A DNA stretch of 64,000 nucleotides, taken from NCBI GenBank assembly GCA_964402565.1, contig CAYOCJ010000001.1, positions 352,079 through 416,078 on the forward strand, given 5' to 3'. Of the stretch, positions 18,837-42,215 are shown piece after piece. The number at the start of each line of letters is the position of its first letter. The first letter of the stretch is position 1. The stretch is from an uncultured Gammaproteobacteria bacterium (GTDB lineage Bacteria > Patescibacteriota > Patescibacteriia > UBA1558 > 2-01-FULL-52-15). The position numbers were made by a program, and so were the translations under genes. The notes beneath the pieces are model-generated. The model did no database searches and was not told where the DNA came from. It was given only the letters and a program-made list of their open reading frames with translations.

Positions 18837-19961
18837 ATGAACGCATCGTTGCTCTACATTACGAACTATCGAATGCCGACTGAAAAGGCTCATGGCTTGC
18901 AAGTGGCGCGCATGTGCGATGCATTCGCCGAAGCGGGCGCATCACTTGAGCTCGTTGTTCCAAAAAGGCCATTCATCAAAGAGTCAGTGCGGGCATACTA
19001 TGGCCTTCGCCATGAATTTCCGGTGACCTATTTGCCGGTATGGGATCTGACAGGAAAAATTCCATTCATTGGTTTTTTCATCCAGAGCCTGACATTCGCT
19101 TTTGCAGCATTGCAGTATGTCCGAATGAAGAAATATAACGGACCGATCATAACACGCGATCAGTTCACTGCATTTGTATTTTCTTTGGCCGGCCGCAATG
19201 CTTTTTTTTATGAAGCGCATACGCTTCCGAAGCGCGGTTCTTTTTTTTATCGCAGCATCTTTAAAAAAGCCACGCGCATCATCGTCATTAGCGACGGATT
19301 GCGAGATGCGCTTGTGCAGCAAGGTGTTCCCTCCGATAAGATAGTTGTGGAACGCGATGCGTATGAACCTTCGCTTTTTTTGAAAACGGGAGCATCAAGC
19401 GAGATCCGCCAGCGCCTTGGAGTAGAGGAGCATAAAGCATTGATCATGTATATCGGGTCGCTCATGCGCTGGAAAGGCGTCTATACGTTACTTGATGCTG
19501 CGGATATGCTGCCGAGCACCTACCATGTAGTTATCATCGGTGGTCCGCAAAAAGATTTTGAAGCTCTTGAACAGTATTTTCATGAGCATCACATACGCAA
19601 TGTTAGTTTAAAAAAACAGACTCCGCACAGCGAAATTGCGCTCTATGTACGCGCGGCAGATATTCTGGTGCTGCCGAATAGCGCTGTGGATGATATTTCG
19701 CGACTCTATACATCACCCTTAAAGCTATTTGATTACCTCGCCAGTGCGCGGCCCATTGTTGCAAGCGATGTACCTTCATTGCATGAAATTGGCGACCAAT
19801 TCAGCGGCATTTCGTATTTCAAGCCTGATGATGCCGGCGAACTTGCTCGGGTCATTACTTCAGCGGACTATCGCCAACATTATAAGCGGGACATGCGTGC
19901 ATATACCTGGGACGCTCGGGCAAGCCGCATTTTGAAGCTTATAGCAGATGCATCAGCATAG
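18837..19961 (+). CDS. GT4-family glycosyltransferase
   Basis: GT-B architecture. Motif LKLFDYLASARPIVASDVPSLHEIG. Confidence 0.65.
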   Translation: MNASLLYITNYRMPTEKAHGLQVARMCDAFAEAGASLELVVPKRPFIKESVRAYYGLRHEFPVTYLPVWDLTGKIPFIGFFIQSLTFAFAALQYVRMKKYNGPIITRDQFTAFVFSLAGRNAFFYEAHTLPKRGSFFYRSIFKKATRIIVISDGLRDALVQQGVPSDKIVVERDAYEPSLFLKTGASSEIRQRLGVEEHKALIMYIGSLMRWKGVYTLLDAADMLPSTYHVVIIGGPQKDFEALEQYFHEHHIRNVSLKKQTPHSEIALYVRAADILVLPNSAVDDISRLYTSPLKLFDYLASARPIVASDVPSLHEIGDQFSGISYFKPDDAGELARVITSADYRQHYKRDMRAYTWDARASRILKLIADASA

Positions 19962-19994: not shown

Positions 19995-20969
19995 ATGTTA
20001 ACGACACAAGAACCGCTCAACAAAGAGAAATTTCAACTCATTTCAATCGTTGTACCGATCTATAATGAGGAAGAGAGCATTCATTTGCTCTATGACAAGA
20101 TACGGGAGCAAAACGCTTTTGATTGGGAAATCATTATGGTCAACGATGGGTCAACTGATGCCAGCGCTGATCGTCTGCGTGAGCTGGCAGAGAAAGATGC
20201 TCGTGTAAAAGTCATTAATTTACGAAGAAATTACGGACAAACGGCTGCTATGGCTGCCGGTTTTAATTTCGCTCACGGCGATGTGGTGGTTCCGCTGGAT
20301 GCTGATCTGCAAAATGATCCGAGCGACATCCCTCAGCTGCTCTCAGTTCTAGCCGAGGGGTACGACGTAGTATCTGGCTGGAGAAAGGAGCGATGGCAGG
20401 ATAAGCGCTTGTCTCGAAAGCTTCCGTCCTTGCTCGCGAATATTCTTATTTCGCGCATTACGGGGACCACATTGCACGATTATGGCTGCACCCTGAAAGC
20501 GTACCGCCGAACTGTTTTGAACGACGTGAAGCTCTATGGAGAAATGCATCGCTATATTCCGGCTTTCGCCGCATGGCAAGGAGCCCGTGTTACAGAAATA
20601 CCAGTTCACTACCATAAACGTCGCTTCGGCAAGACAAAATATGGCATGAGCCGTATTTTTCGCGTGATCTTAGATCTGGTAACGGTTAAATTTTTGATCG
20701 GCTATTCGACAAAACCAATGCATTTTTTCGGCAAGTTCGGCGTCTGGAGCCTGATCGTATCAGCGGTGGCCGGCGGATTAGCCATCGACTGGAAGATTTA
20801 CTACGGCACGAGCCTCATTTCTACGCCATTGCCATTGTTTGCAGCGCTTTTCTTCATTGTAGGTGTGCAGTTGATCTTAATGGGCCTGGTGGCAGAAATG
20901 ATGACGCGGAATTACTACGAAACATCCGGCAGGCCTATTTATAACGTGAAGGATACATTGAACATGTAA
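19995..20969 (+). CDS. GT2 polyprenyl-phosphate sugar synthase (GtrB/ArnC/DPM1-like) with C-terminal TM helices
   Basis: Motifs ISIVVPIYNEEESI, VNDGSTDAS and DADLQNDPSDIP. The C-terminus has 2-3 TM helices. Confidence 0.8.
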   Translation: MLTTQEPLNKEKFQLISIVVPIYNEEESIHLLYDKIREQNAFDWEIIMVNDGSTDASADRLRELAEKDARVKVINLRRNYGQTAAMAAGFNFAHGDVVVPLDADLQNDPSDIPQLLSVLAEGYDVVSGWRKERWQDKRLSRKLPSLLANILISRITGTTLHDYGCTLKAYRRTVLNDVKLYGEMHRYIPAFAAWQGARVTEIPVHYHKRRFGKTKYGMSRIFRVILDLVTVKFLIGYSTKPMHFFGKFGVWSLIVSAVAGGLAIDWKIYYGTSLISTPLPLFAALFFIVGVQLILMGLVAEMMTRNYYETSGRPIYNVKDTLNM

Positions 20970-20979
20970 CTCTTCCTGG

Positions 20980-21013
20980 TCGTTCGCCTGATCTAGTTCG
21001 AACGATTTTTTAT
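20980..21013 (+). terminator. rho-independent terminator
   Basis: The stem is TCGTTCG (20980-20986) paired with CGAACGA (20999-21005). A TTTTTTATT tract follows. Confidence 0.55.
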
Positions 21014-21040
21014 TAAGCAAAGAAATTTAATAGACATCAC

Positions 21041-21904
21041 ATGGCAGATGCGCAAGAACTCTCGATGCGACCGGCTCTGAAATGGAAATGTCTTTCATGT
21101 TCCGGCGCTTTGCACGCAGAGAACGGCGCTTTACGATGCGCGTCGTGCGGGACCGTATACGCTTACAAGAACGGCCAGTATTTTTTTTTGAAGACCACTG
21201 TTAACGATAATCGGTTCGAGGTCAGACTGCGCAATTTCTATAAACGTTTTCCGCGGCTGTATTATTTCGTCGCAACTTTTTTTGGACCAGCGCTCTTTAC
21301 CGGAATGACAGCAAGGCGTTTTTTGAAAAAGTACTATCACGACGGAATGACCGTATTGAATCTTGGGTCAGGGCCCAAGATCCTTGGCGACTCGATCATA
21401 AATATAGATATGTTTCCGTACCATGGCGTGACCATAGTGTCTGATGTGTGTACTGTACCTCTCGCAGACGGTACCGCTGACCTCATTCTGTGTGATGAGC
21501 TCGTAGAGCACGTTGAAAGCGTCGACAAACTGTTTGCCGAAGTGAAGCGTCTGCTGAAACCGGGCGGACATGTGTACTTTTCTATACCATTTTTGTATCC
21601 TTTCCATTCGTCGCCGGTTGATTTCTCTCGGTGGACATTATCAGGCTTCAAACAAAAACTTTCTGCGGTTGGGCTCTCTGATGTTGAGAAAGGCGTTTTG
21701 GCCGGACCCTTTTCTGCGTTAAGCGCCTATGCCTGTTATGTCTTTGCGCTGATGTTCTCATTTAACAGCGAGCGCCTGTTCTGGTTGCTCATGAATATAA
21801 GTATTTTCATTTTTTTTCCGATCAAATTTCTTGATCTCATCGCACATCGATTGCGATTAGCAAGCCATGTTGCATCGGTTCTCTATTATGTCGCTAAAAA
21901 ATAA
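21041..21904 (+). CDS. SAM-dependent methyltransferase with N-terminal zinc ribbon
   Basis: The zinc ribbon is CLSCSG..17..CASCG. The class I methyltransferase motif is VLNLGSGPK..D. Confidence 0.6.
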   Translation: MADAQELSMRPALKWKCLSCSGALHAENGALRCASCGTVYAYKNGQYFFLKTTVNDNRFEVRLRNFYKRFPRLYYFVATFFGPALFTGMTARRFLKKYYHDGMTVLNLGSGPKILGDSIINIDMFPYHGVTIVSDVCTVPLADGTADLILCDELVEHVESVDKLFAEVKRLLKPGGHVYFSIPFLYPFHSSPVDFSRWTLSGFKQKLSAVGLSDVEKGVLAGPFSALSAYACYVFALMFSFNSERLFWLLMNISIFIFFPIKFLDLIAHRLRLASHVASVLYYVAKK

Positions 21905-21911
21905 CAACGCT

Positions 21912-22685
21912 ATGCCTACCATGCACGATCGTTTTGGTTTCGAATGGGAAAAATACAATAGTATTAAACCCGAATATCGCGAGCAATATCGTGAACAGTT
22001 TCTGAATTGGACGCATCCGTTGCAGCCGGATTTTTATACAGGGAAGCGCATCCTCGATGCAGGGTGCGGCATGGGGCGGAACAGCTACTGGTGCCTGGAA
22101 TGGGGCGCTGCGTCTCTTGTCGGCTGCGACCATGATCTGAGATCGGTCGAGGCAGCTCGAGAAACATTGAAGAAATTTTCGAATGTCGAATTATCTCAGC
22201 TTGATCTCGAAGACCTGCCGTGGCAGAACGAGTTTGATTTTATATTCTCCATTGGCGTAGTGCATCATACGAAGCATCCTGACATAGTCATGAAAGAGCT
22301 CTATGAAGCGCTGAAGCCCGGTGGCGAGGTATTGCTATGGGTATACTCGAGCGTCGGGTACGAAGGCGTTTTGAAGATATTGAACCCGATCAGAAAATAC
22401 ATCACGAGTCATATGAACCTGCGCCTCTTGCATGTGGTGACCTATCTCTGCAGTATACCGCTGTACGCATGGATACATCTGTTCCCGGTCAAAAAGCCGT
22501 ACTTCCAGCAAATGAAAACATTCTCATTTTCGCACATGCACAGCATTCTATTCGACCAATTGCTTCCCGAGATAGCGCGGTATTATTCGAAAGATGAAGC
22601 CGCAGATCTCGTATCGCAATTTAAGGACGCTGAAGTATATGCTCCGCCCAATGCTACCGGCTGGATAGTTCGGGCAAAAAAATAA
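21912..22685 (+). CDS. class I SAM-dependent methyltransferase
   Basis: The ORF is called from 21867. The ATG at 21912 follows the upstream stop. Motif ILDAGCGMGRNSYW. Confidence 0.65.
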   Translation: MPTMHDRFGFEWEKYNSIKPEYREQYREQFLNWTHPLQPDFYTGKRILDAGCGMGRNSYWCLEWGAASLVGCDHDLRSVEAARETLKKFSNVELSQLDLEDLPWQNEFDFIFSIGVVHHTKHPDIVMKELYEALKPGGEVLLWVYSSVGYEGVLKILNPIRKYITSHMNLRLLHVVTYLCSIPLYAWIHLFPVKKPYFQQMKTFSFSHMHSILFDQLLPEIARYYSKDEAADLVSQFKDAEVYAPPNATGWIVRAKK

Positions 22686-22702
22686 CATCGTTTAAGGTTC
22701 GC

Positions 22703-24508
22703 ATGCAGATCACTCATTACCCCCGACAATTACTGCATCGTTTTTGGATACCCGCATGCGTCGCGGTATTGGTCGCTTGTCTCTACGGCATGCCCTACAT
22801 CGTTTCCATTGTGCAGCTGGGTTCACGTTATCACGGCATACCGATGATGGTGACCGGTGATGAAGAGACCTATGTGGCCAGGATGCATGATATTCTTGAT
22901 GGCCATCCCATGTTAGGTTCGCCAGTTTTCTTTGAGTACAAAGACCAGATCCCGCTTTTGCCGCCGACAGGGGAGTGGCTCTATATACTGCCGAGTCTCG
23001 TATTCGGAGCGAATCTCATCGATGTGGTCATAGCGAGCAAATTTATAGTACCTGCGCTGCTTGCGCTAGCGGTATATGTTTGTGCTCTAAGTTTTTTTGA
23101 AGAACGCAATCGTAATGTGAGGGTGATCGCTGGTGCTATTTCTCTAGCTGTGCTGTGCGGGTATGATGTTGTCGATTTCAGGCAGGTAGTCGGCTTGCTG
23201 CGCGGGTCTGTAACGCCGAGTGCTTTTCTTATCTGGTCCAGACTGGTGAACCCCATCACCGGTGCGATCGCATTATTCGTTTACCTTGCGTCACTGAATC
23301 GTATACTCAAAGGCTCTCAGTCTTGGCGTCCCATGACGGTGGGCGCTATCGCTTTGGCTTTCATGTTCGCGTCTTATTTTTTCAGCTGGGCATATGCCCT
23401 TACGATCACCCTGTGCGTATCGATATTGCTTGCTGTCACTCGGCGATTGAAACTCATGAAGCGGCTGCTAGCGCTTGCGGGCGCTGGTATTTTGCTCGCA
23501 GCGCCGTATTGGTATATGCTTGCGCGGTTATTCAGCCAGCCCTCATATATGCATGGAGAGGGTTTATCAGCTCTGTTCCATACGCATCAACCAGTCATCA
23601 ATAAATTTGTGCTGCTGATGCTCATTGTTTTTTGTGCAGCGTTGTTTCTGTGGCGGCGGTATGAAAAGTCCGACGTGCTCCGCGATAATGCAGTACTGAT
23701 GATGGCTGCATGCGTTCTTGCAAGTTGTATCGTATTTATGCAACAGATCGTCACCGGTGTTGCCATTTGGCCTTTTCATTTTGTGCAATACACCATACCG
23801 GTTCTGATCATGATTTTGTATCTCATCATCTATCGATCATTGCGCTTTGCAGGTTTTGCATGGATACGCACGATCGGAAAAGCTGCGCTGTTCTATATAC
23901 TCCCGTTATGCGCGCTTCTCTATGCGATAACGTTGCAATCGCGGGTCTATGCATTCTGGGTGCCGACGGTTATTGATCAGCAGCGCTATGCTGCAGTGTT
24001 TCAATGGCTTGATGAGCATACCGACCATGATTGCGTTGTGCTGACTCGTGAGGGCGCGGATGACAATTTAAATGCGCTTGTACCAGGTTTTACGCATTGT
24101 AATGTCTATACGTCAAATTATCGCTTCTTGCATGCGCCCAATATACAGGAGCGCTTTGAGCATAACTATTTTACGCAATTGCGTTTGCATGGCATTACTC
24201 CGGCGACGGCGCCACTGTATATCCGCGACCACGAACGTGAAGCGCGAAGCTACCTGGGCGATACGCTGCAAGAATATTTTGGGGAACAAAAATTTTCTGA
24301 TGTGCCTCTTTCTGATTTCAAGTCAAAGATCGGGGAGCTGAGCATTTTGTATAAAAAATTCTATGAACAAGACTTTCGCACTGAACTTGAGAAATATCGA
24401 ATTGACGTGCTGATATCTACAACGCCTCTTGCATCGGATGTGATCGGATCGATACAGGGCCTGCACAGCGAAGGTGAACTTAATGGCGTTTCAGTGTATA
24501 CTCTATAG
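22703..24508 (+). CDS. polytopic GT-C-like membrane protein (ArnT/PMT-like DE motif)
   Basis: 601 aa with more than 10 TM helices. The first-loop motif VTGDEETYVARMHDILDGH resembles the one in the GT-C at 17109. Confidence 0.45.
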   Translation: MQITHYPRQLLHRFWIPACVAVLVACLYGMPYIVSIVQLGSRYHGIPMMVTGDEETYVARMHDILDGHPMLGSPVFFEYKDQIPLLPPTGEWLYILPSLVFGANLIDVVIASKFIVPALLALAVYVCALSFFEERNRNVRVIAGAISLAVLCGYDVVDFRQVVGLLRGSVTPSAFLIWSRLVNPITGAIALFVYLASLNRILKGSQSWRPMTVGAIALAFMFASYFFSWAYALTITLCVSILLAVTRRLKLMKRLLALAGAGILLAAPYWYMLARLFSQPSYMHGEGLSALFHTHQPVINKFVLLMLIVFCAALFLWRRYEKSDVLRDNAVLMMAACVLASCIVFMQQIVTGVAIWPFHFVQYTIPVLIMILYLIIYRSLRFAGFAWIRTIGKAALFYILPLCALLYAITLQSRVYAFWVPTVIDQQRYAAVFQWLDEHTDHDCVVLTREGADDNLNALVPGFTHCNVYTSNYRFLHAPNIQERFEHNYFTQLRLHGITPATAPLYIRDHEREARSYLGDTLQEYFGEQKFSDVPLSDFKSKIGELSILYKKFYEQDFRTELEKYRIDVLISTTPLASDVIGSIQGLHSEGELNGVSVYTL

Positions 24509-24518
24509 TATTGTCCGT

Positions 24519-25250
24519 ATGGATAAACAATACGAATCAATATATCATTCAGCAGAAGATACTAATTGGTGGTTCAAGGCTCGGCAAGATTTTGTATATC
24601 GTTTTTTAAAGTTGCACGCATACGCTCCGGATACCCGGATATTAGATATTGGTTGCGGCGGAGGAGGGCTCTTGAGCTATTTACAGCAGCGGGGATTTTC
24701 GAAATTATCAGGCATCGATCTGTCGCCTGAGGCGATCGCGTTCTGCAAGTCGCGCAATCTATCATCGGTTACGCTCGACGATGCGCAATACGCACAGACC
24801 CTCGCTGAGGGCAGTTTCGATGTTATTATTGCTTCTGATGTTCTTGAGCATCTTCAGCACGCATCAGAAGCAATGCAGCGATGGAAAGACCTCCTTGCGC
24901 CCGGTGGCGTCATCATCCTTTTTGTGCCTGCCTATCAGGCGCTCTGGAGCGAGCGCGATGTGTTGAATAAACATATCATGCGGTATACGCAGCGGCAGGT
25001 ACTCGCTATGGTGGAAACATTGCATTTGCAGACGCTCACGCGCAGCTACTGGAATTTTTTTATGTTCGCTCCTTATGCGCTTTTGCTCAAAATAAAGAAG
25101 CATACGAAGAATAAGATCGTCACCATTCGCAACAAAGAAACCATCGTCAATAAAATTTTGAAAGCGATATTGAAGATCGAAAATAGTATGATACTGAAAG
25201 GCGCGCACTTGCCATTTGGTGTCAGTTTCCTGGGCATATTTAAAAAATGA
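24519..25250 (+). CDS. class I SAM-dependent methyltransferase
   Basis: The ORF is called from a GTG at 24474. The ATG at 24519 is 10 nt after the upstream stop. Motif ILDIGCGGGGLLSYL. Confidence 0.65.
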   Translation: MDKQYESIYHSAEDTNWWFKARQDFVYRFLKLHAYAPDTRILDIGCGGGGLLSYLQQRGFSKLSGIDLSPEAIAFCKSRNLSSVTLDDAQYAQTLAEGSFDVIIASDVLEHLQHASEAMQRWKDLLAPGGVIILFVPAYQALWSERDVLNKHIMRYTQRQVLAMVETLHLQTLTRSYWNFFMFAPYALLLKIKKHTKNKIVTIRNKETIVNKILKAILKIENSMILKGAHLPFGVSFLGIFKK

Positions 25251-25256
25251 CCGATC

Positions 25257-27662
25257 ATGAACAGCAACACTGACCATCCATCAGCATTGAACGGGTGGCG
25301 AGCAAAAGTTATTTTTATATTGCCCATCCTGGCGCTATTGATCATTTTTCGAGATGTGCTCTTTGCCGGCCGTATTTTTTCAGACGGCGATTCTTTTTTG
25401 TATTTTTATCCGCTATTCAAGATCATTGCATCTTCGAAATCTCTGGTCACGCCTTCTATACTCTCAGGTTTTCCGCTCTATACATCGGTCAATGCTTCAT
25501 GGTTTTATCCGGTATATAGTTTCCTGTTTCGTTTTTTTGACCTGTATAACGGCTATCATTACCTGACGCTGCTTAATTTTATTCTTGCATATGTCGGCAC
25601 CTACTGGTATACCCGATCGTTAAAAGTATCGCATGCCGGAAGCAGCATAGCAGGAGCGGTATTCATCTTTTCAGGACAATTGATGATGTGGGGTTCGGTC
25701 ATTGTAAATACGAACTATTATTGGATCCTGCCTTTCGTTCTGTACGGCATTGAGCATGCAAAAAAAGGAGGCTATTATTCGTCGTATCTTCTGTTGTCTG
25801 CACTGTTGCTAGGCACCGGATGGCTGTCGAGCCACACGCAATTCATCGTGTATATTCACGCTTTTGTTTTTTGCTACTATCTGAGATTTTGCATCGTTCC
25901 GGTCCGCAAAGATGCGGCCAGAGCGATGTACCGAACCGTCCTCATGTTGATCATGTTCGGCATATCGGCAGCCATAGGATATGTGCAGATACACTCGATC
26001 TTGTCGTTTACAAGCCAAACAGCGCGTGCCGGAGGCGTTGCATTGTCAGAGGCGTTTGCCGGCAGCTATCTGCCGCAGGACTTGCTGCAATACATTATTC
26101 CGTTCTGGCGTTTGCCTTTTTTTCCCGCTGCTGCGCCGAATCTGTATATTGGCATTATTCCGTTCATCTTGCTGGTATACGCGCTCTGGAACAATAAGCA
26201 AAATAGCACTGTACGTTTTTTTGCTTTCACGTTTTTTGTTTCTCTAGTAACAGGATTCTATTATTCGCCGGTTGCTCTTTTGATACACTACTTGCCTTTT
26301 GCACATGCATTCCGCGAATTGAGCAGACTTATGCTCATCGGGGATTTCGCTGCGGCAATGCTTGCGGCTTTTGCATTTGATCGACTTGCGATGAGCACTT
26401 CTGATGAACGTTTTCTGAAACTGCTCCTGATCTTTAAAAAGGTATTGCTTTGGGTTGGAGCGCCTCTCGTTTTCATTGCAACAGTATCCCGCCTTTTTTT
26501 CACAGTTATGATTGAACAGGTACTGCAGGGCTTGTTTTTTAAATTTAAATATGCGAATACCGCTCACTTAGCTCCGGAGCATTATCAGGCATTGATTCGA
26601 CAATATACGAAGAGTGCTTTGGATATTTTTTCACTGACGAATCCGCAGACCATCGTATCGATCATATTCATAGTGCTCTTGTTCGTAGCATGTCGGCAGC
26701 GGGCGCGCGTACATCAAAGTGGCTGGGCATTGCTCATAATGCTGCTGATCGTTTGCAATACCACATGCACCTATGCTGGTTTCTATACAACAGTGCCGCG
26801 CGCACTCGCCGAATCAGAGCCAGCCTCAATAGCCGCTATCAGTGATGACCGAAGCAATGATCAGCCCTTTCGAATATTCTCATTATTTACCGGTGTCGCA
26901 GAATATGACCGTTTCGCAGTGAATTGCAGTAATGACTCAGCGGAAGATAGGCTTGCTTTTGAACAGGCGCTTGCGGTGCCGAATATCAATATTCAATACG
27001 AGCTCGAGTCTGCAGACGGATATGAAAACTTCATGCCAAAACGGATAGCTGAGCTCCTGGCATATGTCGGATCTGAGCGCGCGACCGCAGGAGAATTGCT
27101 TTCTTCAAAAAAAATTCCGGTCGAAGAACGTATTCAGGAGTTTACCCGCAGAACGGATGTGCTGCGTCTCATGAATGTGCAGTATGTATTGTCGCCGTAC
27201 CAGATCAATGATCCCGGCCTCTTTGAAATATATCATGGGGATTTACCGGGATGCGGCGGCACCGACTACGTTTACAAGCTCTTGAATGCAATGCCGAGAT
27301 ATTTCTTTACGGATAAAGCCGAACAGCTGAAATCAAGTTCGGATGATATCGACGCCCTTGCTCATGAGCTCGGCCAGGCAATGCATAATCACTCGATCGT
27401 ACTTGAAACAGCTGCGGTGCATTCTGCGGAAGAGGGCACTGCGTTGATCGCTGAATTGCAGCCAGAAACAAGCGGCGATAAAATTACGTTTACGGTGAAC
27501 GAACCAAAGAGCGGATACGTTTTTGTCGGCAATGCATGGCTGCCCGGCTGGCACGCGAGCGTCGACAGCAAGCCGGTAACGATCGAACGTGCAGATTATA
27601 TGTATATGGCTGTTCCAGTTGAGGCGGGCTCTCACCGCATTGAATTTTTCTATGAACGATAA
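25257..27662 (+). CDS. YfhO-family polytopic membrane protein (GT-C-like; candidate extracytoplasmic glycan transferase)
   Basis: 801 aa. The N-terminal region is multi-TM. The YfhO-like C-terminus reads VGNAWLPGWHASVDSKPVTIERADYMYMAVPVEAGSHRIEFFYE. Confidence 0.55.
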   Translation: MNSNTDHPSALNGWRAKVIFILPILALLIIFRDVLFAGRIFSDGDSFLYFYPLFKIIASSKSLVTPSILSGFPLYTSVNASWFYPVYSFLFRFFDLYNGYHYLTLLNFILAYVGTYWYTRSLKVSHAGSSIAGAVFIFSGQLMMWGSVIVNTNYYWILPFVLYGIEHAKKGGYYSSYLLLSALLLGTGWLSSHTQFIVYIHAFVFCYYLRFCIVPVRKDAARAMYRTVLMLIMFGISAAIGYVQIHSILSFTSQTARAGGVALSEAFAGSYLPQDLLQYIIPFWRLPFFPAAAPNLYIGIIPFILLVYALWNNKQNSTVRFFAFTFFVSLVTGFYYSPVALLIHYLPFAHAFRELSRLMLIGDFAAAMLAAFAFDRLAMSTSDERFLKLLLIFKKVLLWVGAPLVFIATVSRLFFTVMIEQVLQGLFFKFKYANTAHLAPEHYQALIRQYTKSALDIFSLTNPQTIVSIIFIVLLFVACRQRARVHQSGWALLIMLLIVCNTTCTYAGFYTTVPRALAESEPASIAAISDDRSNDQPFRIFSLFTGVAEYDRFAVNCSNDSAEDRLAFEQALAVPNINIQYELESADGYENFMPKRIAELLAYVGSERATAGELLSSKKIPVEERIQEFTRRTDVLRLMNVQYVLSPYQINDPGLFEIYHGDLPGCGGTDYVYKLLNAMPRYFFTDKAEQLKSSSDDIDALAHELGQAMHNHSIVLETAAVHSAEEGTALIAELQPETSGDKITFTVNEPKSGYVFVGNAWLPGWHASVDSKPVTIERADYMYMAVPVEAGSHRIEFFYER

Positions 27663-28566
27663 CGCTCACATGCAAAGCGAAATGCAGCTACACAAATCGT
27701 CCGTTTGCCCGCTCTGCCAGCGTGATCACGTGATGCCTTTGTTTAACAAAAATGGCTACCAGATAGTTCGATGCACTGACTGCGATTATACCTTCATCGA
27801 TCCTAGGCCAAGTGAAGCTGCTATGAAGGCATACTATGATTCGCATATGTATACGCGCGGGAATAAATATGTCTATACGAAAGAGGGGAGTGCGTTGACC
27901 TATGGCGAGCAAATAAATGACGAGCGAAAGCTGGCGTATATACGGAAATTTATATCCAGCGGCGCATTGCTCGATATCGGTGCGGCATTTGGATTTTTTG
28001 TCCACCAGGCCGCCCGGTTTTTTGATGCTCAAGGAGTCGAGCCATCGCACGAATCGGTCCTGAAAGCGCATGAGCTTGATATTCCTGTCCGCGAAGGAAC
28101 GGTCGATGCTATCCCCGAATCAGAACAGTATGATTGCATTGTGACGTGGGATGTGATCGAGCACGTATTTGATCCTCGAGACTTTGTACGAAAGATATCG
28201 AAACGCTTGAAATCGGATGGCTATTTATTTATCTCAACGGGCGACGCCTCTGGGATCGTTCCGCGGTTGTCGCTGAAGCACTGGGCTTTGATGACGCCGC
28301 CGGATCATCTGCAGTTTTTTTCAAAGACGACAATTTCATCGCTGCTTGAACAAGAGGGTTTCAAAGTCCTTGATATTCGGCATAGCGGGAAGTCCATGAC
28401 ATTAGAATGGTTTTTGTTCAAACTGTCAGATACATTTACGATCGCGCCCTTGCGTTTTTTGGCCCAGATTGTTAAAAAGTCAGGATTGAAGAGATTCCGC
28501 GTCTACGTGAATACCTTCGATATTATGACTGTTTGCGCGCAAAAGGTGCGTGATATACAATACTAA
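27652..28566 (+). CDS. SAM-dependent methyltransferase with N-terminal zinc-binding domain (sugar C/O-methyltransferase-like)
   Basis: The ORF is called from 27589. Starts are available at 27652 and 27670. The zinc ribbon is CPLCQ..17..CTDCDY. Methyltransferase motif LLDIGAAFGFF. Confidence 0.6.
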   Translation: MNDNAHMQSEMQLHKSSVCPLCQRDHVMPLFNKNGYQIVRCTDCDYTFIDPRPSEAAMKAYYDSHMYTRGNKYVYTKEGSALTYGEQINDERKLAYIRKFISSGALLDIGAAFGFFVHQAARFFDAQGVEPSHESVLKAHELDIPVREGTVDAIPESEQYDCIVTWDVIEHVFDPRDFVRKISKRLKSDGYLFISTGDASGIVPRLSLKHWALMTPPDHLQFFSKTTISSLLEQEGFKVLDIRHSGKSMTLEWFLFKLSDTFTIAPLRFLAQIVKKSGLKRFRVYVNTFDIMTVCAQKVRDIQY

Positions 28567-29432
28567 TGAGTTATTCTATGCCGATATCTTTCAGCATCAT
28601 CATCCCGTGTTTTAATGAAGCACCAAATATCGAGAAAACATTGCACGATCTCTTAGCGCATCTAAAAACGATCAGCATTGCACATGAAGTTATTGTAGTG
28701 AATGACGGGTCAACTGATGCATCCGCAGAGATCCTGAAAAAATTTCCGGTTCACGTCGTGCAGCACGCGATCAACAGAGGATATGGCGCTTCGTTGAAAA
28801 CAGGATCACTGGCCGCACAGTATGACTGGCTGCTTTTTTATGATGCAGACGGCCAGCATAAACCAGAGCATATTGATGACCTGCTCCGAGAAGCTGACAA
28901 CCATGATATGGTTGTCGGTGCCCGTGAAGGGTATCAGGGTCCGATGGTGAGACAGCCCGGAAAAAAGATCGTTAAATTGATCGCGCAATATTTGAGCGAT
29001 GCGCGCATCCCTGATCTGAACTCGGGTTTTCGTCTCGTGCGCAAAAGCATTTTTAATGAATTCATCAATCTGTATCCTGATGGTTTTTCATTGAGCACGA
29101 CCATTACGATCGCGCTACTCAAAAATCATTATCGCGTTTCATATGTGCCTATTCGCATCAACAAGCGATTGGGAAAGAGTACCGTAAAATGGAGCGATAT
29201 GCTGGGACAATTGGTGCTGATCAGCCGCTTGATCGTTCTATTTTCTCCGCTGCGTCTCTTTATTACCATCGCCGGTATCCTGTTTGCGTTCGGTTTCATT
29301 TCGCTGATCAATGACATCCTTGCCTTTAACCTGAACGAGTCGACTTATTTTCTGATCACTACATCACTGATCATTTTCTCATTCGGTTTGCTCGCTGATC
29401 AGCTTTCTGAAATTCGAAAACGTTTACGATGA
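28566..29432 (+). CDS. GT2 polyprenyl-phosphate sugar synthase (GtrB-like) with C-terminal TM helices
   Basis: TAATG overlap with the upstream gene. Motifs FSIIIPCFNEAPNI, VNDGSTDAS and YDADGQHKPEHIDDL. TM helices follow residue 220. Confidence 0.8.
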   Translation: MSYSMPISFSIIIPCFNEAPNIEKTLHDLLAHLKTISIAHEVIVVNDGSTDASAEILKKFPVHVVQHAINRGYGASLKTGSLAAQYDWLLFYDADGQHKPEHIDDLLREADNHDMVVGAREGYQGPMVRQPGKKIVKLIAQYLSDARIPDLNSGFRLVRKSIFNEFINLYPDGFSLSTTITIALLKNHYRVSYVPIRINKRLGKSTVKWSDMLGQLVLISRLIVLFSPLRLFITIAGILFAFGFISLINDILAFNLNESTYFLITTSLIIFSFGLLADQLSEIRKRLR

Positions 29433-31486
29433 ATACCTTGCGCACCACTATCCGCGATGCCCGAGGAGATAGCAGCGATTATATTTTGGTAGCGACATGG
29501 GTGATGTGCGCAGTCGGCATTGTAGCCTTGCTCGGAGGTTTTTTTTGGTTTTGGCTTATCATTCCACTCGCTGTTTGTTGTGCAGGCGTCGGCGTGTATG
29601 GGTTCGTCAATAAGCGGATCATCATGCCGAAAGGTTTTGTACAAATCATGGCAGTAATGCTATTTTTTTTGTTTGGCGTCATGCTTCTGCGGGGGTTCTA
29701 TACCGGCGATGGCCCGGCATACTGGCTGCCGTTTGCACGCAGTATGGTAGAGAACCACAGGATCATTCCGTTTATACAAACACAGGACGCGGCTACCGGT
29801 AGAGAACCGTTATTGCCCATTTTTTTGAGCATTGGAATATTTTTTTCTCAATCTGAGTGGGCATATGGCTGGGTACCGCTGCTTTTTACACTGGGAACTT
29901 TGCTGTATATAGTACGCTGGCTGCGCGATTCAGATATTGAGCCAGTATATCAGCGATGGGCCGTCGCTATTTTTTTATCAGCGCCATTGATCGCGTTCTG
30001 GAGCTGGAATATCCTTGAAGAGGCCCCGGTGCTTTTTGCATTCACTGCATTTTTTTTCTACGCGGACCGGTATCGCAAGTCGCTCTCTGATATTGATTTT
30101 ATTTTTCTAACGACCGCGCTTGGCATAGCATTATTGACCAGGTATATTGCTCTTGTTCTGCTGCTGCCGTATGGGTTGCTTTGGCTGCAGTCCCAAAAAA
30201 AAGTACACAAGCTCCTATTTTTTGGTATAGCGTGCCTTCCATTTTTGATGTGGATCACTAAGAATTGCCTGGTTTACCATTCGCCATTTTTCCCGTTATT
30301 TTCATCGCTCTTTGGCGGCCCCTATGCTGCGTATCAGGCTCACTCGCACTTTCTGGGTTCACTCTCAATGAGCCTGGTTGATAAAATATATTTCGTCATT
30401 CGACAGCTCGCATTTGAGCTGCCCATCGTTTGCATAGGCTTCTGGGCACTGATACGCGAAAAGCGATATGCATACGCAGCCGTCGTCGCGATCATTCTTC
30501 TGGCATTAACATCGCTATTTTTTACACAGACGTCTGCAACTCGTTATTTCTACCCATTCGCTGGCTTGCTTGTTGTATATGGTTTTCGCTATCTTGTGTC
30601 CGAAAAAAACCAAAATACACTGTTGTTTTTTCTTCTCATCTTGTGTGCTTCTTTATTGAGTGTCGATGTAACGCAGTCGTCTAGCCATTTCATAGGAAGC
30701 ATTGAGCATCTATTTCATGTTGCAGTACCACTGCTTAATTTCATATCACGATATGCGTGGATTTTTGCGCTGTGTATCCCTGCGGTCATGCTCGTGGTCA
30801 AGATGCCCGTAGATCGAATACGCAGCAGTATTTTTGTGTTGCTGGCGCTGCACATAGTTCATCTACGTTTCATTGAGAACAAAAGCTGGATCGCGACATG
30901 GCCATGGATCATCTTGTGCATGATCTTGATCATGGCACTCGCATCAAAAAAACTATCAGTTGTAGTTTCGCGGACCATGACAGCTCTTGTGCTTATCGCC
31001 ATCCTCACGGATACGTGGGGCCTCGCTATCGTCTATGCCATGCAAAACCATGATCTGAGCTTCAACTCGGTTTCGCGGATCTATTCAGCGCAGGACATCA
31101 TCGGGCGCGAGATCGATCGCCGCGAGAAAGGAGCAAAGGATTTTTATCTCCTCACCGAAGCTCCGGGGTATTATGCATGGGACCTCCATTACCATGTCGT
31201 GACGTTCAGATCCTTCAATTTTAATTATATTACGAAACTGCACCTCGAGAACGCGCATTCGGCAGCTGAAGTCCGTGATGCGCTCCAGACAGGAACTATC
31301 AAATACCTTATTTACGAGGGCGACGAAAATGTGCCGGCATATGAACAGTTTGACACCGGGTATATAAATGCGCACAATACCATCTATCAAGTAGCTCGAG
31401 ATAATCCAGCAATTTTCCCGTCCGTATTCAACGTAACGGACCCTGAAAACGGCATTCAAGCAGTGGTCTATCAGGTCTATGAGTAA
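29429..31486 (+). CDS. large polytopic membrane protein, GT-C-like candidate acceptor-side partner of the adjacent GtrB-like enzyme
   Basis: ATGA overlap with the GT2 gene. 685 aa, more than 12 TM helices and a C-terminal soluble domain. No specific family motif was recognised. Confidence 0.4.
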   Translation: MNTLRTTIRDARGDSSDYILVATWVMCAVGIVALLGGFFWFWLIIPLAVCCAGVGVYGFVNKRIIMPKGFVQIMAVMLFFLFGVMLLRGFYTGDGPAYWLPFARSMVENHRIIPFIQTQDAATGREPLLPIFLSIGIFFSQSEWAYGWVPLLFTLGTLLYIVRWLRDSDIEPVYQRWAVAIFLSAPLIAFWSWNILEEAPVLFAFTAFFFYADRYRKSLSDIDFIFLTTALGIALLTRYIALVLLLPYGLLWLQSQKKVHKLLFFGIACLPFLMWITKNCLVYHSPFFPLFSSLFGGPYAAYQAHSHFLGSLSMSLVDKIYFVIRQLAFELPIVCIGFWALIREKRYAYAAVVAIILLALTSLFFTQTSATRYFYPFAGLLVVYGFRYLVSEKNQNTLLFFLLILCASLLSVDVTQSSSHFIGSIEHLFHVAVPLLNFISRYAWIFALCIPAVMLVVKMPVDRIRSSIFVLLALHIVHLRFIENKSWIATWPWIILCMILIMALASKKLSVVVSRTMTALVLIAILTDTWGLAIVYAMQNHDLSFNSVSRIYSAQDIIGREIDRREKGAKDFYLLTEAPGYYAWDLHYHVVTFRSFNFNYITKLHLENAHSAAEVRDALQTGTIKYLIYEGDENVPAYEQFDTGYINAHNTIYQVARDNPAIFPSVFNVTDPENGIQAVVYQVYE

Positions 31487-31492: not shown

Positions 31493-32839
31493 ATGTCTGA
31501 CGTTATTCAAAAATATAAAGAGCGGGCGCTTAGTAGTCTTTTCATAAAGGACGTTGCATTGCTGCAAGCAAGTACACTCGCGATCACAGCGCTTTCAGTA
31601 GCATCGTCGGTCATTTTGGCCCGCATGCTGGGGCCTGAACAATATGGCACCTATGCGATCATCTTTTCTTTTACCGCATTGCTCGCGAGTTTTGCTGATT
31701 GGAGCGGCGCCAACTATGTCGTCACCACCTTTCTGTCGAGAGCGTACGTGGAGAAGAACAGAGCGCAGATCGAATCCATCATCGGGTATGTCGTTAAAAT
31801 GTTCTTGTTCGTTTTTCTGCCGCTGACCGTGCTTGCCATTTTGGTAGCGCCGCAACTGTCCACGCGTTTCTATCACAGCTCCTATATAGGCGTCATGACG
31901 CGATTGCTTTTGTTTGAGAATATACTCGGAGCTGTTTTTGGCATTTTTAAGGTATTGCTCGAGGCCAGCAGAAAAATAAAGAAATTAACGATACTTGAGG
32001 TCACTGAAAAATTATTTTTCATCATCATTCCGATCCTCTTTGTCATTTTCCATTTCGGCGTGACCGGTTATGTGTGGGGCGTGATCATCGCCTCAACGTG
32101 CATGGTCGCGATCGGCTACTATCTGTACCGGGTATTAACCCGCCGAGATCCGTTGTTTCCACCTATGAGAAAGGTGCTCGCGAATGCTACTGAAAAAAAT
32201 TCGCGCGAGTATGTTCTGTTCGGATTCAATGCTTCTCTGGATAAGACACTTTCGAATATCAGTGCTACATTACCGATAGCTTTTTTGGCAGCAGTAGCCT
32301 CGCGGTCAGAGGTTGGCTTTTATAAATTAGCTCTCAGTTATATATCGTTATCGACCCTGCTTTTGAAACCGGCGGCTCGCTTGTTAAATTCACAGCTGCC
32401 GAAATCCTTATCGTTCGGCATCGGTAATTTAAAGAGAGATTTCTATAGAGCTACGTATTTTTCAGCAGGATTCGCGATCATCGCCGTGGTGCCGTTCATT
32501 CTTTTGGCAAAGCCGCTGGTTTATATTTTTTATGGAGAACGGTTCGCTCCGGTGGTTGCGCTGGTTCCGGCACTTATGATCTTCGCAGTCATTTCAGCCG
32601 TTTCAACAGGCATCGGAGCGCTGTTCCGAACGATACAGAAGGTGCGCGTTGCGGTCATTATAAATATTTTGAATTTTTGTATCGCAATGCCTATTAGTTA
32701 TGTTATTATCATGCAGTACGGGGTGTGGGGGATGGTATGGTCAAGCATAGGAGACTCGCTTGTCATTGCCATAGTCTGTCATATATACTTTAGAAATTAT
32801 TTTTCATTCATGGCCAAGAATACTGCGCAGGCGAATTAG
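31493..32839 (+). CDS. Wzx-type oligosaccharide flippase (MOP superfamily polysaccharide biosynthesis protein)
   Basis: 448 aa with about 14 TM helices. Size and topology are typical of Wzx/PST. Confidence 0.6.
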   Translation: MSDVIQKYKERALSSLFIKDVALLQASTLAITALSVASSVILARMLGPEQYGTYAIIFSFTALLASFADWSGANYVVTTFLSRAYVEKNRAQIESIIGYVVKMFLFVFLPLTVLAILVAPQLSTRFYHSSYIGVMTRLLLFENILGAVFGIFKVLLEASRKIKKLTILEVTEKLFFIIIPILFVIFHFGVTGYVWGVIIASTCMVAIGYYLYRVLTRRDPLFPPMRKVLANATEKNSREYVLFGFNASLDKTLSNISATLPIAFLAAVASRSEVGFYKLALSYISLSTLLLKPAARLLNSQLPKSLSFGIGNLKRDFYRATYFSAGFAIIAVVPFILLAKPLVYIFYGERFAPVVALVPALMIFAVISAVSTGIGALFRTIQKVRVAVIINILNFCIAMPISYVIIMQYGVWGMVWSSIGDSLVIAIVCHIYFRNYFSFMAKNTAQAN

Positions 32840-42194: not shown

Positions 42195-42215
42195 ATCTGC
42201 ACTATACAGACTGAC

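What the first reader, a model, noticed from the sequence alone, without database searches (positions are those of the whole stretch)
19995..31486. Repeated GtrB-like GT2 and polytopic GT-C/YfhO modules interleaved with four methyltransferases
Within 11.5 kb there are two polyprenyl-phosphate sugar synthases with C-terminal TM helices (19995 and 28566) and three large GT-C-type membrane proteins. One of these (22703) has an ArnT/PMT-like DE motif, one (25257) is YfhO-like, and one (29429) is translationally coupled to a GtrB-like gene. Between them lie four class I SAM methyltransferases (21041, 21912, 24519, 27652). Two of the four carry N-terminal CxxC..CxxC zinc-binding domains of the kind found on sugar methyltransferases. 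Together with the rml genes elsewhere in the window, this suggests an extracytoplasmic glycosylation pathway. The target could be lipoteichoic-acid-like polymers, an S-layer or a wall polysaccharide. The sugars would be lipid-linked and methylated, for example O-methyl-rhamnose or O-methyl-hexose. I do not recognise this modular organisation as a described pathway.
Basis: partly seen in the sequence, partly recalled or inferred. Interest (0 to 1): 0.7.

Follow-up and report, generated by a model that had tools for sequence, protein, structure and literature searches.

The report
Lipid-linked sugar transfer cassettes with methyltransferases
This stretch of an uncultured ultra-small (Patescibacteria/CPR) bacterium holds three copies of a known kind of machinery that adds lipid-carried sugars to a surface glycan outside the cell, with methyltransferase genes built in and one transferase from a family not yet catalogued.

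Summary
Window 19995-31486 encodes two ArnC/GtrB-type polyprenyl-phosphate glycosyltransferases (PPGTs), three polytopic GT-C enzymes and four class I SAM methyltransferases (MTs), tightly packed on one strand.

The GtrB-plus-GT-C pairing is the described three-/multi-component transmembrane glycosylation mechanism, so it is not a new pathway. The segment lies in a ~45 kb Wzx/Wzy surface-glycan operon of a Patescibacteria genome, with more PPGT-like and GT-C genes outside the coordinates.

Less ordinary points:
- 22703 founds an unmodelled GT-C family seen only in Patescibacteria.
- In 66 related genomes this GT-C has a GT2 upstream in 77% and an MT in 71%, often a membrane-anchored orthologue of 21041.

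I infer that the MTs methylate the lipid-linked sugar on the cytoplasmic side before export. This is untested, and sugar and acceptor are unknown. The zinc ribbons are real but are not PF08421, and only half of the 21041 orthologues have one.

Verdict: new variant of a known kind, moderate interest.

The parts
19995..20969 (+). PPGT-1: an ArnC/GtrB-type GT2 polyprenyl-phosphate glycosyltransferase, 324 aa, with a C-terminal membrane anchor
   Evidence: Pfam Glycos_transf_2 E 1.6e-36. NCBIfam best hits are ArnC at 223.9 bits and PgfS at 167 bits, both below their equivalog cutoffs. PDB ArnC 9bhc E 1.6e-58 and GtrB 5ekp E 1.8e-40, both full length. A C-terminal TM helix was detected. Orthologues at 24-86% identity lie upstream of the 22703-family gene in 44 of 66 loci.
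21041..21904 (+). MT-1: a class I SAM methyltransferase, 287 aa, with an N-terminal CxxC..CxxC zinc ribbon and two C-terminal hydrophobic helices (membrane anchored)
   Evidence: Methyltransf_11 E 1e-11. TM helices at residues 219-237 and 246-264. Orthologues sit directly upstream of the 22703-family GT-C in L006 (E 3e-54) and L007 (E 5e-53). This MT type lies within 5 kb upstream in 35 of 66 loci. The C-terminal anchor is present in 43 of 48 orthologues and the zinc ribbon in 24 of 48.
21912..22685 (+). MT-2: a soluble class I SAM methyltransferase, 257 aa from ATG 21912 (the ORF opens at 21867)
   Evidence: Methyltransf_25 E 3.2e-19; it also hits Methyltransf_9 (CmoB-like) at 49.9 bits. The gene caller on the source contig starts it at the equivalent of 21912. 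The order PPGT-MT21912-MT21041-GT-C recurs in many loci.
22703..24508 (+). GT-C-1: a polytopic GT-C-fold glycosyltransferase, 601 aa, and founding member of a family with no Pfam or NCBIfam model
24519..25250 (+). MT-3: a class I SAM methyltransferase, 243 aa, immediately upstream of the YfhO gene
   Evidence: Methyltransf_23 E 6.7e-20. The MT-YfhO pair is conserved in the close relatives L002 and L090.
25257..27662 (+). GT-C-2: a YfhO-family GT-C glycosyltransferase, 801 aa, about 10 TM helices plus a C-terminal extracytoplasmic domain
   Evidence: Pfam YfhO at 58.9 bits against a cutoff of 28.5. TM scan.
27652..28566 (+). MT-4: a soluble class I SAM methyltransferase, 304 aa, with an N-terminal CxxC..CxxC zinc ribbon. 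Its stop overlaps the start of PPGT-2.
   Evidence: Methyltransf_23 E 1.2e-24, with weak hits to the DUF2387/YheV zinc ribbons. TAATG junction. It is absent from the closest relative L002. An MT of this type overlaps the start of a distant 29429-family gene in L093.
28566..29432 (+). PPGT-2: a GT2 polyprenyl-phosphate glycosyltransferase, 288 aa, with two C-terminal TM helices, translationally coupled to GT-C-3
   Evidence: Glycos_transf_2 E 2.4e-32. PDB ArnC E 1e-18 and DPMS E 1.8e-14. Weak NCBIfam hits to PpgS, AglJ and ArnC. TM helices at 222-240 and 259-277. ATGA overlap with 29429.
29429..31486 (+). GT-C-3: a divergent PMT_2-superfamily GT-C glycosyltransferase, 685 aa, about 12 TM helices
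   Evidence: It has no Pfam hit itself. 19 of 27 full-length family members hit PMT_2 (best E 7e-10), as do 31 of 43 more distant profile hits. D94 in 'GFYTGDGxxYWLP' is nearly invariant. The AF2 model built from 4 sequences failed at pLDDT 54.
31493..32839 (+). Wzx/MOP-family flippase, 448 aa. It is a candidate exporter of the repeat unit, the polyprenyl-P-sugars, or both. It lies just outside the stated coordinates.
   Evidence: Polysacc_synt E 1.6e-18. MOP flippase hit in NCBIfam. It follows the 29429 orthologue in L002 as well.
17070..18767 (+). An additional GT-C candidate (PMT_2), 565 aa, upstream of the finding
   Evidence: PMT_2 at 27.6 bits against a cutoff of 26.1. The order GTC17070-GT4-PPGT19995 is conserved in L034, L053 and L074.
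18837..19961 (+). GT4 glycosyltransferase, 374 aa, that often travels with the PPGT-MT-GT-C cassette
   Evidence: Glyco_trans_1_4 E 6.9e-15. An orthologue lies within 8 kb in 28 of 66 loci, typically directly upstream of the PPGT.

Best explanation
The segment is the central part of a ~45 kb, almost unidirectional surface-glycan operon of a Patescibacteria (CPR) bacterium. The operon has a WbaP-type initiating phosphoglycosyltransferase, a Wzx flippase, two Wzy_C-family proteins, about twelve GT4 genes, several GT2 genes and the rml genes.

Within the segment lie three cassettes of the known three-/multi-component transmembrane glycosylation type:
1. PPGT 19995, MTs 21041 and 21912, and GT-C 22703.
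2. MT 24519 and YfhO 25257, with no PPGT of its own.
3. MT 27652, PPGT 28566 and GT-C 29429.
The Wzx gene follows directly.

Proposed mechanism:
- On the cytoplasmic face, each PPGT loads a nucleotide-activated sugar onto polyprenyl phosphate. In relatives the sugar is probably dTDP-activated.
- The lipid-linked sugar is flipped across the membrane.
- A GT-C enzyme transfers it to an extracytoplasmic acceptor, most likely the polysaccharide made by the rest of the operon.
- The interleaved methyltransferases need cytoplasmic SAM, so they must act before export. The best conserved one (the 21041 type) is membrane-anchored and travels with the PPGT and GT-C. I therefore infer that it O-methylates the polyprenyl-P-linked sugar, so that a pre-methylated sugar is transferred outside.

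What is shown: gene identities, folds, topology, translational coupling and conserved synteny.
What is inferred: the substrate of the MTs, the identity of the sugars, the flippase and the acceptor.

My sub-confidences are about 0.85 that these are lipid-linked-donor extracytoplasmic glycosylation cassettes, and about 0.4 that the MTs act on the polyprenyl-P-monosaccharide rather than on another glycan intermediate.
For: - PPGT identity: both GT2s match ArnC, GtrB and DPMS structures and have C-terminal TM helices.
- Acidic residues lie in the predicted first extracytoplasmic loop: E54 in 22703 and D94 in 29429. Both are conserved.
- Coupling: ATGA and TAATG overlaps, and intergenic gaps of 72 bp or less.
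- Link to lipid-sugar flipping: one 22703-family member carries a fused N-terminal GtrA domain at E 5.7e-16. Another sits in an Arn-like row of GT2, MTs, DegT, an EamA protein and the GT-C. A 29429-family member sits next to an LPG_synthase_TM protein.
- Conserved cassette: in 66 Patescibacteria loci with at least 4 kb upstream, a GT2 lies within 5 kb upstream in 51, an MT in 47, both in 39, and a 21041-type MT in 35.
- The 21041-type MT keeps its C-terminal anchor in 43 of 48 orthologues.
- An MT is also directly upstream of, or overlapping, distant 29429-family genes.
- RmlA::PPGT fusions occur in L017 and L021, directly upstream of an MT and the GT-C.
- Precedent for auxiliary enzymes that modify the Und-P-linked monosaccharide in three-component systems: the ORF13 epimerase (PMC11127046). 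ArnD and DprE1/E2 are further examples from my own knowledge.
- General mechanism reviewed in PMC8035078 and PMC5836110.
Against: - No biochemical data exist for any of these proteins.
- No dedicated GtrA-, ArnE/F- or LPG_synthase_TM-type flippase is in the window. Only a Wzx gene is present.
- YfhO 25257 has no adjacent PPGT.
- The MTs reach no curated family cutoff, so their substrate class is open.
- MT content varies even between close relatives. L002 lacks the 27652 MT and has two extra ones. This fits accessory tailoring but weakens any fixed 'triad'.
- 12-20% of the 66 loci have neither a GT2 nor an MT in the 5 kb upstream of the GT-C (bounds from the counts).
- Known O-methylations of bacterial and archaeal glycans mostly act on lipid-linked oligosaccharides or chain termini, not on Und-P-monosaccharides. 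Examples from my own knowledge are AglP, WbdD and WsaE.
- The 29429 model failed, so its fold rests on transitive sequence homology.
Confidence: 0.6

Rival explanations
1. The cassettes are ordinary three-component side-chain glycosylation systems that transfer unmethylated sugars. The methyltransferases instead tailor the Und-PP-linked repeat unit, or the chain terminus, built by the neighbouring GT4 and GT2 enzymes. Their position between the GT-C genes would then be an accident of operon packing.
For: - Two more MTs (15419, 32849) sit among GT4 genes, not GT-C genes.
- A GT4 (18837 type) is frequently part of the conserved block.
- MT number and type vary between close relatives.
- Known glycan O-methyltransferases act on lipid-linked oligosaccharides or chain ends (own knowledge: AglP, WbdD, WsaE). 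WbdD is mentioned in PMC11127046.
Against: - The 21041-type MT is found next to the 22703-family GT-C and a PPGT in lineages where the surrounding GT4 content differs.
- MTs overlap the start codons of a second, unrelated GT-C family.
- Some cassettes are self-contained, with RmlA/RmlB-like genes, a PPGT, an MT and a GT-C, and no PGT, Wzx or Wzy nearby.
Confidence: 0.25
2. The GT-C enzymes are protein O-glycosyltransferases, PMT- or Pgf-like. They would decorate surface proteins such as S-layer proteins, pilins or Ser/Thr-rich regions with single, possibly methylated, sugars, rather than decorating a polysaccharide.
For: - The 29429 family, 17070 and 54080 hit the PMT_2 and PMT models.
- 19995 resembles PgfS, at 167 bits.
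- Streptococcal GtrB-type systems glycosylate Ser/Thr-rich protein regions (PMC12041528).
- Glycosylation in CPR bacteria is unexplored, and pilins are predicted to be O-glycosylated (PMC11623550).
Against: - The genes are embedded in a Wzx/Wzy-type polysaccharide operon with a PGT and many GT4 genes.
- No obvious acceptor protein gene is adjacent.
Confidence: 0.12
3. Some of the large membrane proteins are not sugar transferases from polyprenyl-P-monosaccharides. They would instead be polymerases or ligases, or non-catalytic GT-C-fold proteins, acting on the Und-PP-linked polymer.
For: - 25257 lacks its own PPGT.
- Two members of the 29429 family give weak Wzy_C hits, at E 0.0085.
Against: - Conserved acidic loop residues are present.
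- There is translational coupling to a PPGT.
- A GtrA fusion exists.
- Separate Wzy_C-family genes already exist at 9485 and 40077.
Confidence: 0.05

Closest known systems
Three-component / multi-component transmembrane glycosylation systems. Examples: GtrA/GtrB/GtrC of Shigella and Salmonella phages; CsbB/GtcA/YfhO and GtlA/GtlB for LTA; GacI/GacK/GacL for streptococcal rhamnopolysaccharide; the Lactococcus Csd pairs.
   Same: - A GT2 polyprenyl-phosphate glycosyltransferase with C-terminal TM helices, paired with a polytopic GT-C enzyme.
- Several such pairs in one rhamnose-associated glycan cluster.
- A Wzx-type flippase next to the module, as with GacK.
- One of the GT-C enzymes is a bona fide YfhO-family member.
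   Different: - SAM methyltransferases are interleaved. One type is membrane-anchored and syntenic with the GT-C across Patescibacteria. I found no description of this in my literature searches.
- There is no GtrA-type flippase in the window.
- One GT-C (22703) belongs to a family with no sequence model.
- The host is a CPR bacterium with an uncharacterised envelope.
The Arn pathway for lipid A modification with L-Ara4N: ArnB, ArnC, ArnD, ArnE/F and ArnT.
   Same: - 19995 is most similar to ArnC (PDB E 1.6e-58).
- The logic is the same: load the sugar on Und-P, modify the lipid-linked sugar in the cytoplasm (the ArnD deformylase), flip it, then transfer it by a GT-C enzyme (ArnT).
- A distant 22703-family locus (L004) has the row GT2, MTs, DegT, an EamA protein and the GT-C.
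   Different: - There is no lipid A in a monoderm CPR bacterium.
- The tailoring enzyme is a methyltransferase, not a deformylase.
- 19995 scores 224 bits against the ArnC equivalog cutoff of 529, so it is not an ArnC orthologue.
Pentofuranose three-component systems with auxiliary epimerases (Kelly et al. 2024, PMC11127046), and the mycobacterial DPR-to-DPA (DprE1/E2) and AftA/Emb arabinosyltransferase route.
   Same: - Auxiliary enzymes change the identity of the sugar while it is on the polyprenyl phosphate, before a GT-C transfers it outside the cell.
   Different: - The donor-forming enzyme here is a GT2 PPGT, not a phosphoribosyltransferase.
- The auxiliary enzymes are SAM methyltransferases.
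- Sequence identity to AftA is only 12%.
Glycan O-methyltransferases that act on lipid-linked or nascent glycans: Haloferax AglP, E. coli O9a WbdD, Geobacillus WsaE and the Tannerella O-glycan MTs (PMC6120980).
   Same: Class I SAM MTs are encoded inside glycan clusters. They act at the cytoplasmic face before export.
   Different: Those enzymes act on oligo- or polysaccharide intermediates and are not paired with PPGT and GT-C genes. The window MTs reach no curated family cutoff, and the 21041 type has its own C-terminal membrane anchor.

Membership tests
Three-/multi-component transmembrane glycosylation system | A GT-A-fold GT2 polyprenyl-phosphate glycosyltransferase with a C-terminal membrane anchor | tested here: met
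   19995 and 28566 both hit Glycos_transf_2. They match ArnC, GtrB and DPMS structures over the catalytic and TM parts and have C-terminal TM helices.
Three-/multi-component transmembrane glycosylation system | A polytopic GT-C-fold glycosyltransferase with a conserved acidic residue in the first extracytoplasmic loop | tested here: met
Three-/multi-component transmembrane glycosylation system | A flippase for the polyprenyl-P-sugar (GtrA-, Wzx- or ArnE/F-type) | tested here: inconclusive
   The Pfam scans of window ORFs of at least 150 aa gave no GtrA, EamA or LPG_synthase_TM hit; ORFs shorter than that were not scanned. Wzx 31493 is adjacent and could serve, as GacK does (PMC8035078). Relatives have a GtrA fusion, an EamA protein or an LPG_synthase_TM protein.
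Three-/multi-component transmembrane glycosylation system | Demonstrated transfer of a sugar from polyprenyl-P-sugar to an extracytoplasmic acceptor | not testable with these tools
   This needs biochemistry or genetics.
YfhO family (PF09586), for 25257 | A score above the Pfam gathering threshold | tested here: met
   58.9 bits against 28.5, in two matched stretches. There was no NCBIfam hit.
PMT_2 / PMT (GT39/GT83-like GT-C), for 29429 | A sequence match to PF13231 or PF02366 above threshold | tested here: inconclusive
   The window protein has no hit at E of 1 or better. 19 of 27 full-length relatives and 31 of 43 distant profile hits match PMT_2. The structure model failed at pLDDT 54.
Any sequence-defined GT-C family (ArnT/PMT, PMT_2, YfhO, DUF2079, STT3 and others), for 22703 | A sequence match to a Pfam or NCBIfam model, or to a solved GT-C chain | tested here: not met
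   There was no Pfam or NCBIfam hit for the window protein. None of the 29 homologues hit a GT-C Pfam family at E of 0.1 or better. The profile found no PDB sequence hit. The protein is a GT-C by fold only.
Methyltransf_13 (PF08421) zinc-binding domain of NDP-sugar C-methyltransferases, for 21041 and 27652 | A match to PF08421 | tested here: not met
   There was no PF08421 hit at E of 0.01 or better. PF08421 is detected in other MTs of related loci (L004, 420 aa; L007, 419 aa), so this domain is recognisable in proteins of related loci (precomputed annotations). The window MTs have generic CxxC..CxxC ribbons.
Class I SAM-dependent methyltransferases, for 21041, 21912, 24519 and 27652 | A Rossmann-like SAM-MT domain above the Pfam thresholds | tested here: met
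   Methyltransf_11, _23 and _25 hits with E from 1e-11 to 1e-24. No specific NCBIfam equivalog cutoff is reached.

The most novel reading that the evidence does not exclude
Patescibacteria use a 'four-component' version of extracytoplasmic glycosylation. A membrane-anchored SAM methyltransferase (the 21041 type, sometimes with a second soluble MT) O-methylates the polyprenyl-phosphate-linked monosaccharide made by the PPGT. A CPR-specific, previously unrecognised GT-C family (the 22703 type) then transfers the pre-methylated, probably 6-deoxy, sugar onto the cell surface. This would be the first case of methylation at the lipid-linked monosaccharide donor level. It would also give the first functional handle on surface glycan tailoring in CPR bacteria.
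Probability: 0.35. Interest if true: 0.7.

Novelty: new variant of a known kind. Interest (0 to 1): 0.55.

Why it matters
CPR/Patescibacteria are a very large, almost uncultured part of bacterial diversity. They live attached to other cells, so their surface glycans are likely central to host recognition and phage defence. Yet their glycosylation is essentially unexplored; PMC11623550 says so for Saccharibacteria.

The finding offers three things:
- A structurally well-predicted GT-C family that current sequence models miss. This improves annotation of at least 85 CPR species.
- A conserved PPGT, membrane-anchored MT and GT-C cassette. It makes a concrete biochemical prediction: methylated polyprenyl-P-sugar donors. 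This can be tested by heterologous expression in E. coli or Bacillus.
- Possible new tools for glycoengineering, namely extracytoplasmic addition of O-methyl sugars.

If the methyltransferases merely tailor the repeat unit, the region is an ordinary, if large, glycan cluster.

Tried and rejected
1. AlphaFold model of 29429 from the 4 available homologues. The result was pLDDT 54, which is unusable, so no fold search was run on it.
2. A word-indexed homologue search with the A2 profile found no additional 29429 relatives. The exhaustive representative search did, but those sequences could not be used for structure prediction.
3. hhalign of the 29429 family against the 22703 family gave only weak, partial similarity: probability 61-80% over the C-terminal TM region. 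I treat them as separate GT-C families.
4. hhalign of 29429 against 17070 and 54080, and of 51946(-) against both families, showed nothing significant. 51946(-) remains unassigned.
5. PDB sequence searches for 22703, 25257 and 29429 gave no meaningful hits.
6. PDB and NCBIfam searches on the MTs gave only generic class I MT matches (UbiG, CmoB, BioC and similar), all far below the cutoffs. No substrate can be inferred.
7. The AFDB50 fold library was unavailable. I therefore could not test by structure whether the 22703 family has relatives outside Patescibacteria.
8. A3 was too divergent for the metagenome scan. A2 gave only 5 loci.
9. I searched for MT::PPGT or MT::GT-C fusion proteins in 80 loci and found none. 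Only RmlA::PPGT and RmlA::RmlB fusions turned up.
10. Literature searches for a methyltransferase inside a GtrB/GT-C system, and for CPR GT-C enzymes, returned nothing relevant.
11. I considered that the large membrane proteins might be transporters. The fold and family results reject this.

Full report
**1. What is in the sequence**

The stated interval, window 19995-31486, contains nine tightly packed + strand genes. Intergenic gaps are 72 bp or less. Two junctions overlap: the stop of the 27652 methyltransferase overlaps the ATG at 28566 as TAATG, and the stop of 28566 overlaps the ATG of 29429 as ATGA.

Pfam assigns the genes as follows:
- 19995 and 28566 hit Glycos_transf_2, at E 1.6e-36 and 2.4e-32.
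- 21041, 21867/21912, 24474/24519 and 27589/27652 hit class I SAM-methyltransferase families.
- 25257 hits YfhO at 58.9 bits against a cutoff of 28.5.
- 22703 and 29429 have no hit.

**2. The two GT2 genes are polyprenyl-phosphate glycosyltransferases (PPGTs)**

- 19995 aligns end to end with ArnC structures (9bhc, E 1.6e-58) and with Synechocystis GtrB (5ekp, E 1.8e-40).
- 28566 aligns with ArnC (E 1e-18) and with the archaeal dolichol-phosphate mannose synthase 5mlz (E 1.8e-14).
- Both carry C-terminal hydrophobic helices.
- Neither reaches an NCBIfam equivalog cutoff; ArnC scores 224 bits against 529. The sugar therefore cannot be named.

**3. The three large membrane proteins are GT-C enzymes**

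*22703.* Homologue searching found 34 relatives. None had a Pfam domain on record except P0028 (PF04138, GtrA), and every named one comes from Patescibacteria: Falkowbacteria, Parcubacteria and Yanofskybacteria.
- An AlphaFold model from 29 sequences has pLDDT 90 and pTM 0.91.
- No sequence method sees this relationship. There is no PDB hit with the family profile, and none of the 29 members hits a GT-C Pfam family.
- The loop after TM1 carries D53-E54-E55. E54 is at least 90% conserved and Y57 is invariant. This is the position where GT-C enzymes carry their catalytic acidic residue. That last point is established knowledge of the fold and was not tested by superposition here.

*29429.* It has only three word-index homologues, and its model failed at pLDDT 54.
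- An exhaustive profile search found 490 relatives.
- 19 of 27 full-length relatives, and 31 of 43 more distant ones, hit PMT_2 or PMT.
- D94 is nearly invariant.
- It is therefore a divergent PMT_2-superfamily GT-C by transitive homology.

**4. The methyltransferases**

All four are class I SAM MTs, but none reaches a specific curated family. The best NCBIfam scores are 42-60 bits against cutoffs of 100-200, and the PDB hits are generic.
- The CxxC..CxxC motifs in 21041 and 27652 are real. They do not match PF08421, although that domain is annotated on other MTs in related loci.

**5. Wider context**

The window is a CPR genome region dominated by one glycan operon, from about 9.5 to 59 kb. 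It contains:
- a Wzy_C+TPR protein (9485);
- twelve GT4 genes;
- a further MT (15419);
- a PMT_2 GT-C (17070);
- the segment in question;
- a Wzx flippase (31493);
- another MT (32849);
- a GATase/WbuX-like amidotransferase (34735);
- an RmlD-like gene (37869-);
- an EPS-type phosphoglycosyltransferase (38604-), at 374 bits and above its cutoff;
- a second Wzy_C protein (40077);
- an S8 protease with FG-GAP repeats (42186);
- PPGT-like short GT2 genes (44678, and 47633 = PpgS-like at 154 bits);
- an unassigned 12-TM protein (51946-);
- another PMT_2 GT-C (54080);
- RmlC, RmlB and RmlA.

So there are up to four PPGT-like genes and five or six GT-C candidates, not two and three.

**6. Comparative evidence**

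*Close relatives.* The closest relative (GCA_964422585.1, L002) keeps the same gene order. It has one extra MT before the 22703 orthologue, lacks the 27652 MT, and has an extra MT after the Wzx gene. A third relative (L090) keeps the order MT, GT-C, MT, YfhO, GT2, GT-C.

*Distant 22703-family members.*
- L004 has an Arn-like row: GT2, MT, a C-MT, DegT, an EamA protein, then the GT-C.
- L006 and L007 have a GT2 within 3.1 kb upstream (in L007 directly before the MT) and an orthologue of 21041 directly upstream (E 3e-54 and 5e-53).

*Scan of 185,579 species genomes.* It returned 85 relatives. Every taxonomically informative title is Patescibacteria; some TPA titles say 'uncultured Gammaproteobacteria', which looks like a labelling artefact. 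I ran my own ORF and BLASTP analysis on the 66 loci with at least 4 kb of upstream sequence:

| Feature within 5 kb upstream of the GT-C | Loci (of 66) |
|---|---|
| a GT2 | 51 (77%) |
| an MT | 47 (71%) |
| both | 39 (59%) |
| a 21041-type MT | 35 (53%) |
| a 21041-type MT directly adjacent | 22 |

- The commonest order is [GT4]-PPGT-[MT 21912 type]-MT 21041 type-GT-C. RmlA/RmlB-like genes are sometimes inserted.
- The 21041-type MT keeps its C-terminal anchor in 43 of 48 orthologues and the zinc ribbon in only 24 of 48.
- One family member has GtrA fused to its N-terminus.
- Two loci have RmlA fused to the PPGT.
- In the unrelated 29429 family, distant members also have an MT overlapping their start codon (L091, L093, L095) or an LPG_synthase_TM protein upstream (L088).

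**7. Interpretation**

The PPGT plus GT-C logic is the known three-/multi-component transmembrane glycosylation mechanism (PMC8035078, PMC5836110, PMC11127046). Several pairs in one rhamnose-associated cluster are also known; from my own knowledge, the streptococcal Scc and lactococcal Csd systems, see also PMC10821137.

What I could not find described is the systematic association with methyltransferases.
- SAM is cytoplasmic and the GT-C active site is outside the cell, so methylation must precede export.
- The conserved MT is membrane-anchored and follows the PPGT and GT-C rather than the PGT, Wzx and Wzy genes.
- The most economical model is therefore methylation of the polyprenyl-P-monosaccharide. 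This is analogous to ArnD, DprE1/E2 and the ORF13 epimerase of Kelly et al., which modify lipid-linked monosaccharides before GT-C transfer (PMC11127046).
- This step is inferred, with a probability of about 0.35-0.4.
- The main rival is that the MTs tailor the Und-PP-linked repeat unit.
- The acceptor, polysaccharide or protein, is open. The PMT-like similarities keep protein O-glycosylation alive as a rival (PMC12041528).

**8. Verdict**

- Novelty: a new variant of a known kind. It combines an unmodelled, CPR-restricted GT-C family with a conserved PPGT, MT and GT-C cassette.
- Interest is moderate, at about 0.55. It is not surprising in principle to a glycobiologist, but it gives a concrete, testable handle on CPR surface glycans and on a possible new level of sugar tailoring.

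Noticed in passing
window 17070-18767 (+), 54080-55786 (+), 51946-54102 (-): There are two further PMT_2-type GT-C candidates, of 565 and 568 aa and just above the Pfam cutoff. There is also a 718-aa, roughly 12-TM protein with a C-terminal soluble domain and no Pfam or NCBIfam hit. It has the general build of a GT-C but could not be assigned by hhalign.
   Followed up: partly
window 44678-45376 and 47633-48292 (+): Two short GT2 proteins (232 and 219 aa) lack TM helices and resemble the polyprenyl-phospho-GalNAc synthase PpgS. 47633 scores 153.6 bits over its full length, below the cutoff of 370. They may be additional lipid-sugar donor synthases for the extra GT-C genes.
   Followed up: partly
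window 9485-11971 and 40077-42164 (+): There are two Wzy_C (O-antigen ligase/polymerase/PglL family) proteins in a monoderm CPR genome. One is fused to C-terminal TPR repeats (828 aa). They could be polymerases or protein O-oligosaccharyltransferases.
   Followed up: no
window 2431-8530 (+): An ECF sigma factor (2431) and a DUF5667 anti-sigma-like protein (2990) are followed by a 1252-aa ORF (4772-8530) with no Pfam hit, directly upstream of the glycan operon.
   Followed up: no
window 42186-44261 (+): A subtilase (Peptidase_S8) with FG-GAP repeats is embedded in the glycan cluster, between a Wzy_C gene and the GT2 genes.
   Followed up: no
window 34735-36765 (+): A fusion of an N-terminal glutamine amidotransferase domain with a WbuX-like N-acetyl-sugar amidotransferase domain (108 bits). 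It suggests an amidated or acetamidino sugar in the glycan, as in the Tannerella O-glycan cluster (PMC6120980).
   Followed up: no
L017 2257-3729 (+), L021 3536-4984 (+): Single ORFs of 490 and 482 aa fuse an RmlA-like nucleotidyltransferase to a PPGT-like GT2. They lie directly upstream of an MT and a 22703-family GT-C. This is a Rosetta-stone link between dTDP-sugar synthesis and lipid loading.
   Followed up: partly
P0028 (735 aa; ENA contig of 3.5 kb): A 22703-family member has an N-terminal GtrA_DPMS_TM domain (E 5.7e-16) fused ahead of the GT-C body, which starts at residue 160.
   Followed up: yes
L010, L014, L023, L045, L047, L057, L058, L066: Several Patescibacteria loci carry two, sometimes three, tandem or nearby paralogues of the 22703-family GT-C, often each with its own PPGT. 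This suggests repeated cassette duplication.
   Followed up: no
L008, L014, L020, L034, L040, L064, L081, L082, L084 (record titles): Some TPA MAG records that carry this CPR-type cluster are titled 'uncultured Gammaproteobacteria bacterium'. One of them is the closest relative, GCA_964422585.1. Gene content and homologues point to Patescibacteria, so the titles look like placeholder or wrong taxonomy.
   Followed up: no
window 37869-38600 (-): The RmlD-like reductase is short (243 aa; the Pfam match covers only profile positions 2-149 of 287). It lies on the opposite strand, next to the PGT and far from rmlCBA at 56.7-59.3 kb.
   Followed up: no
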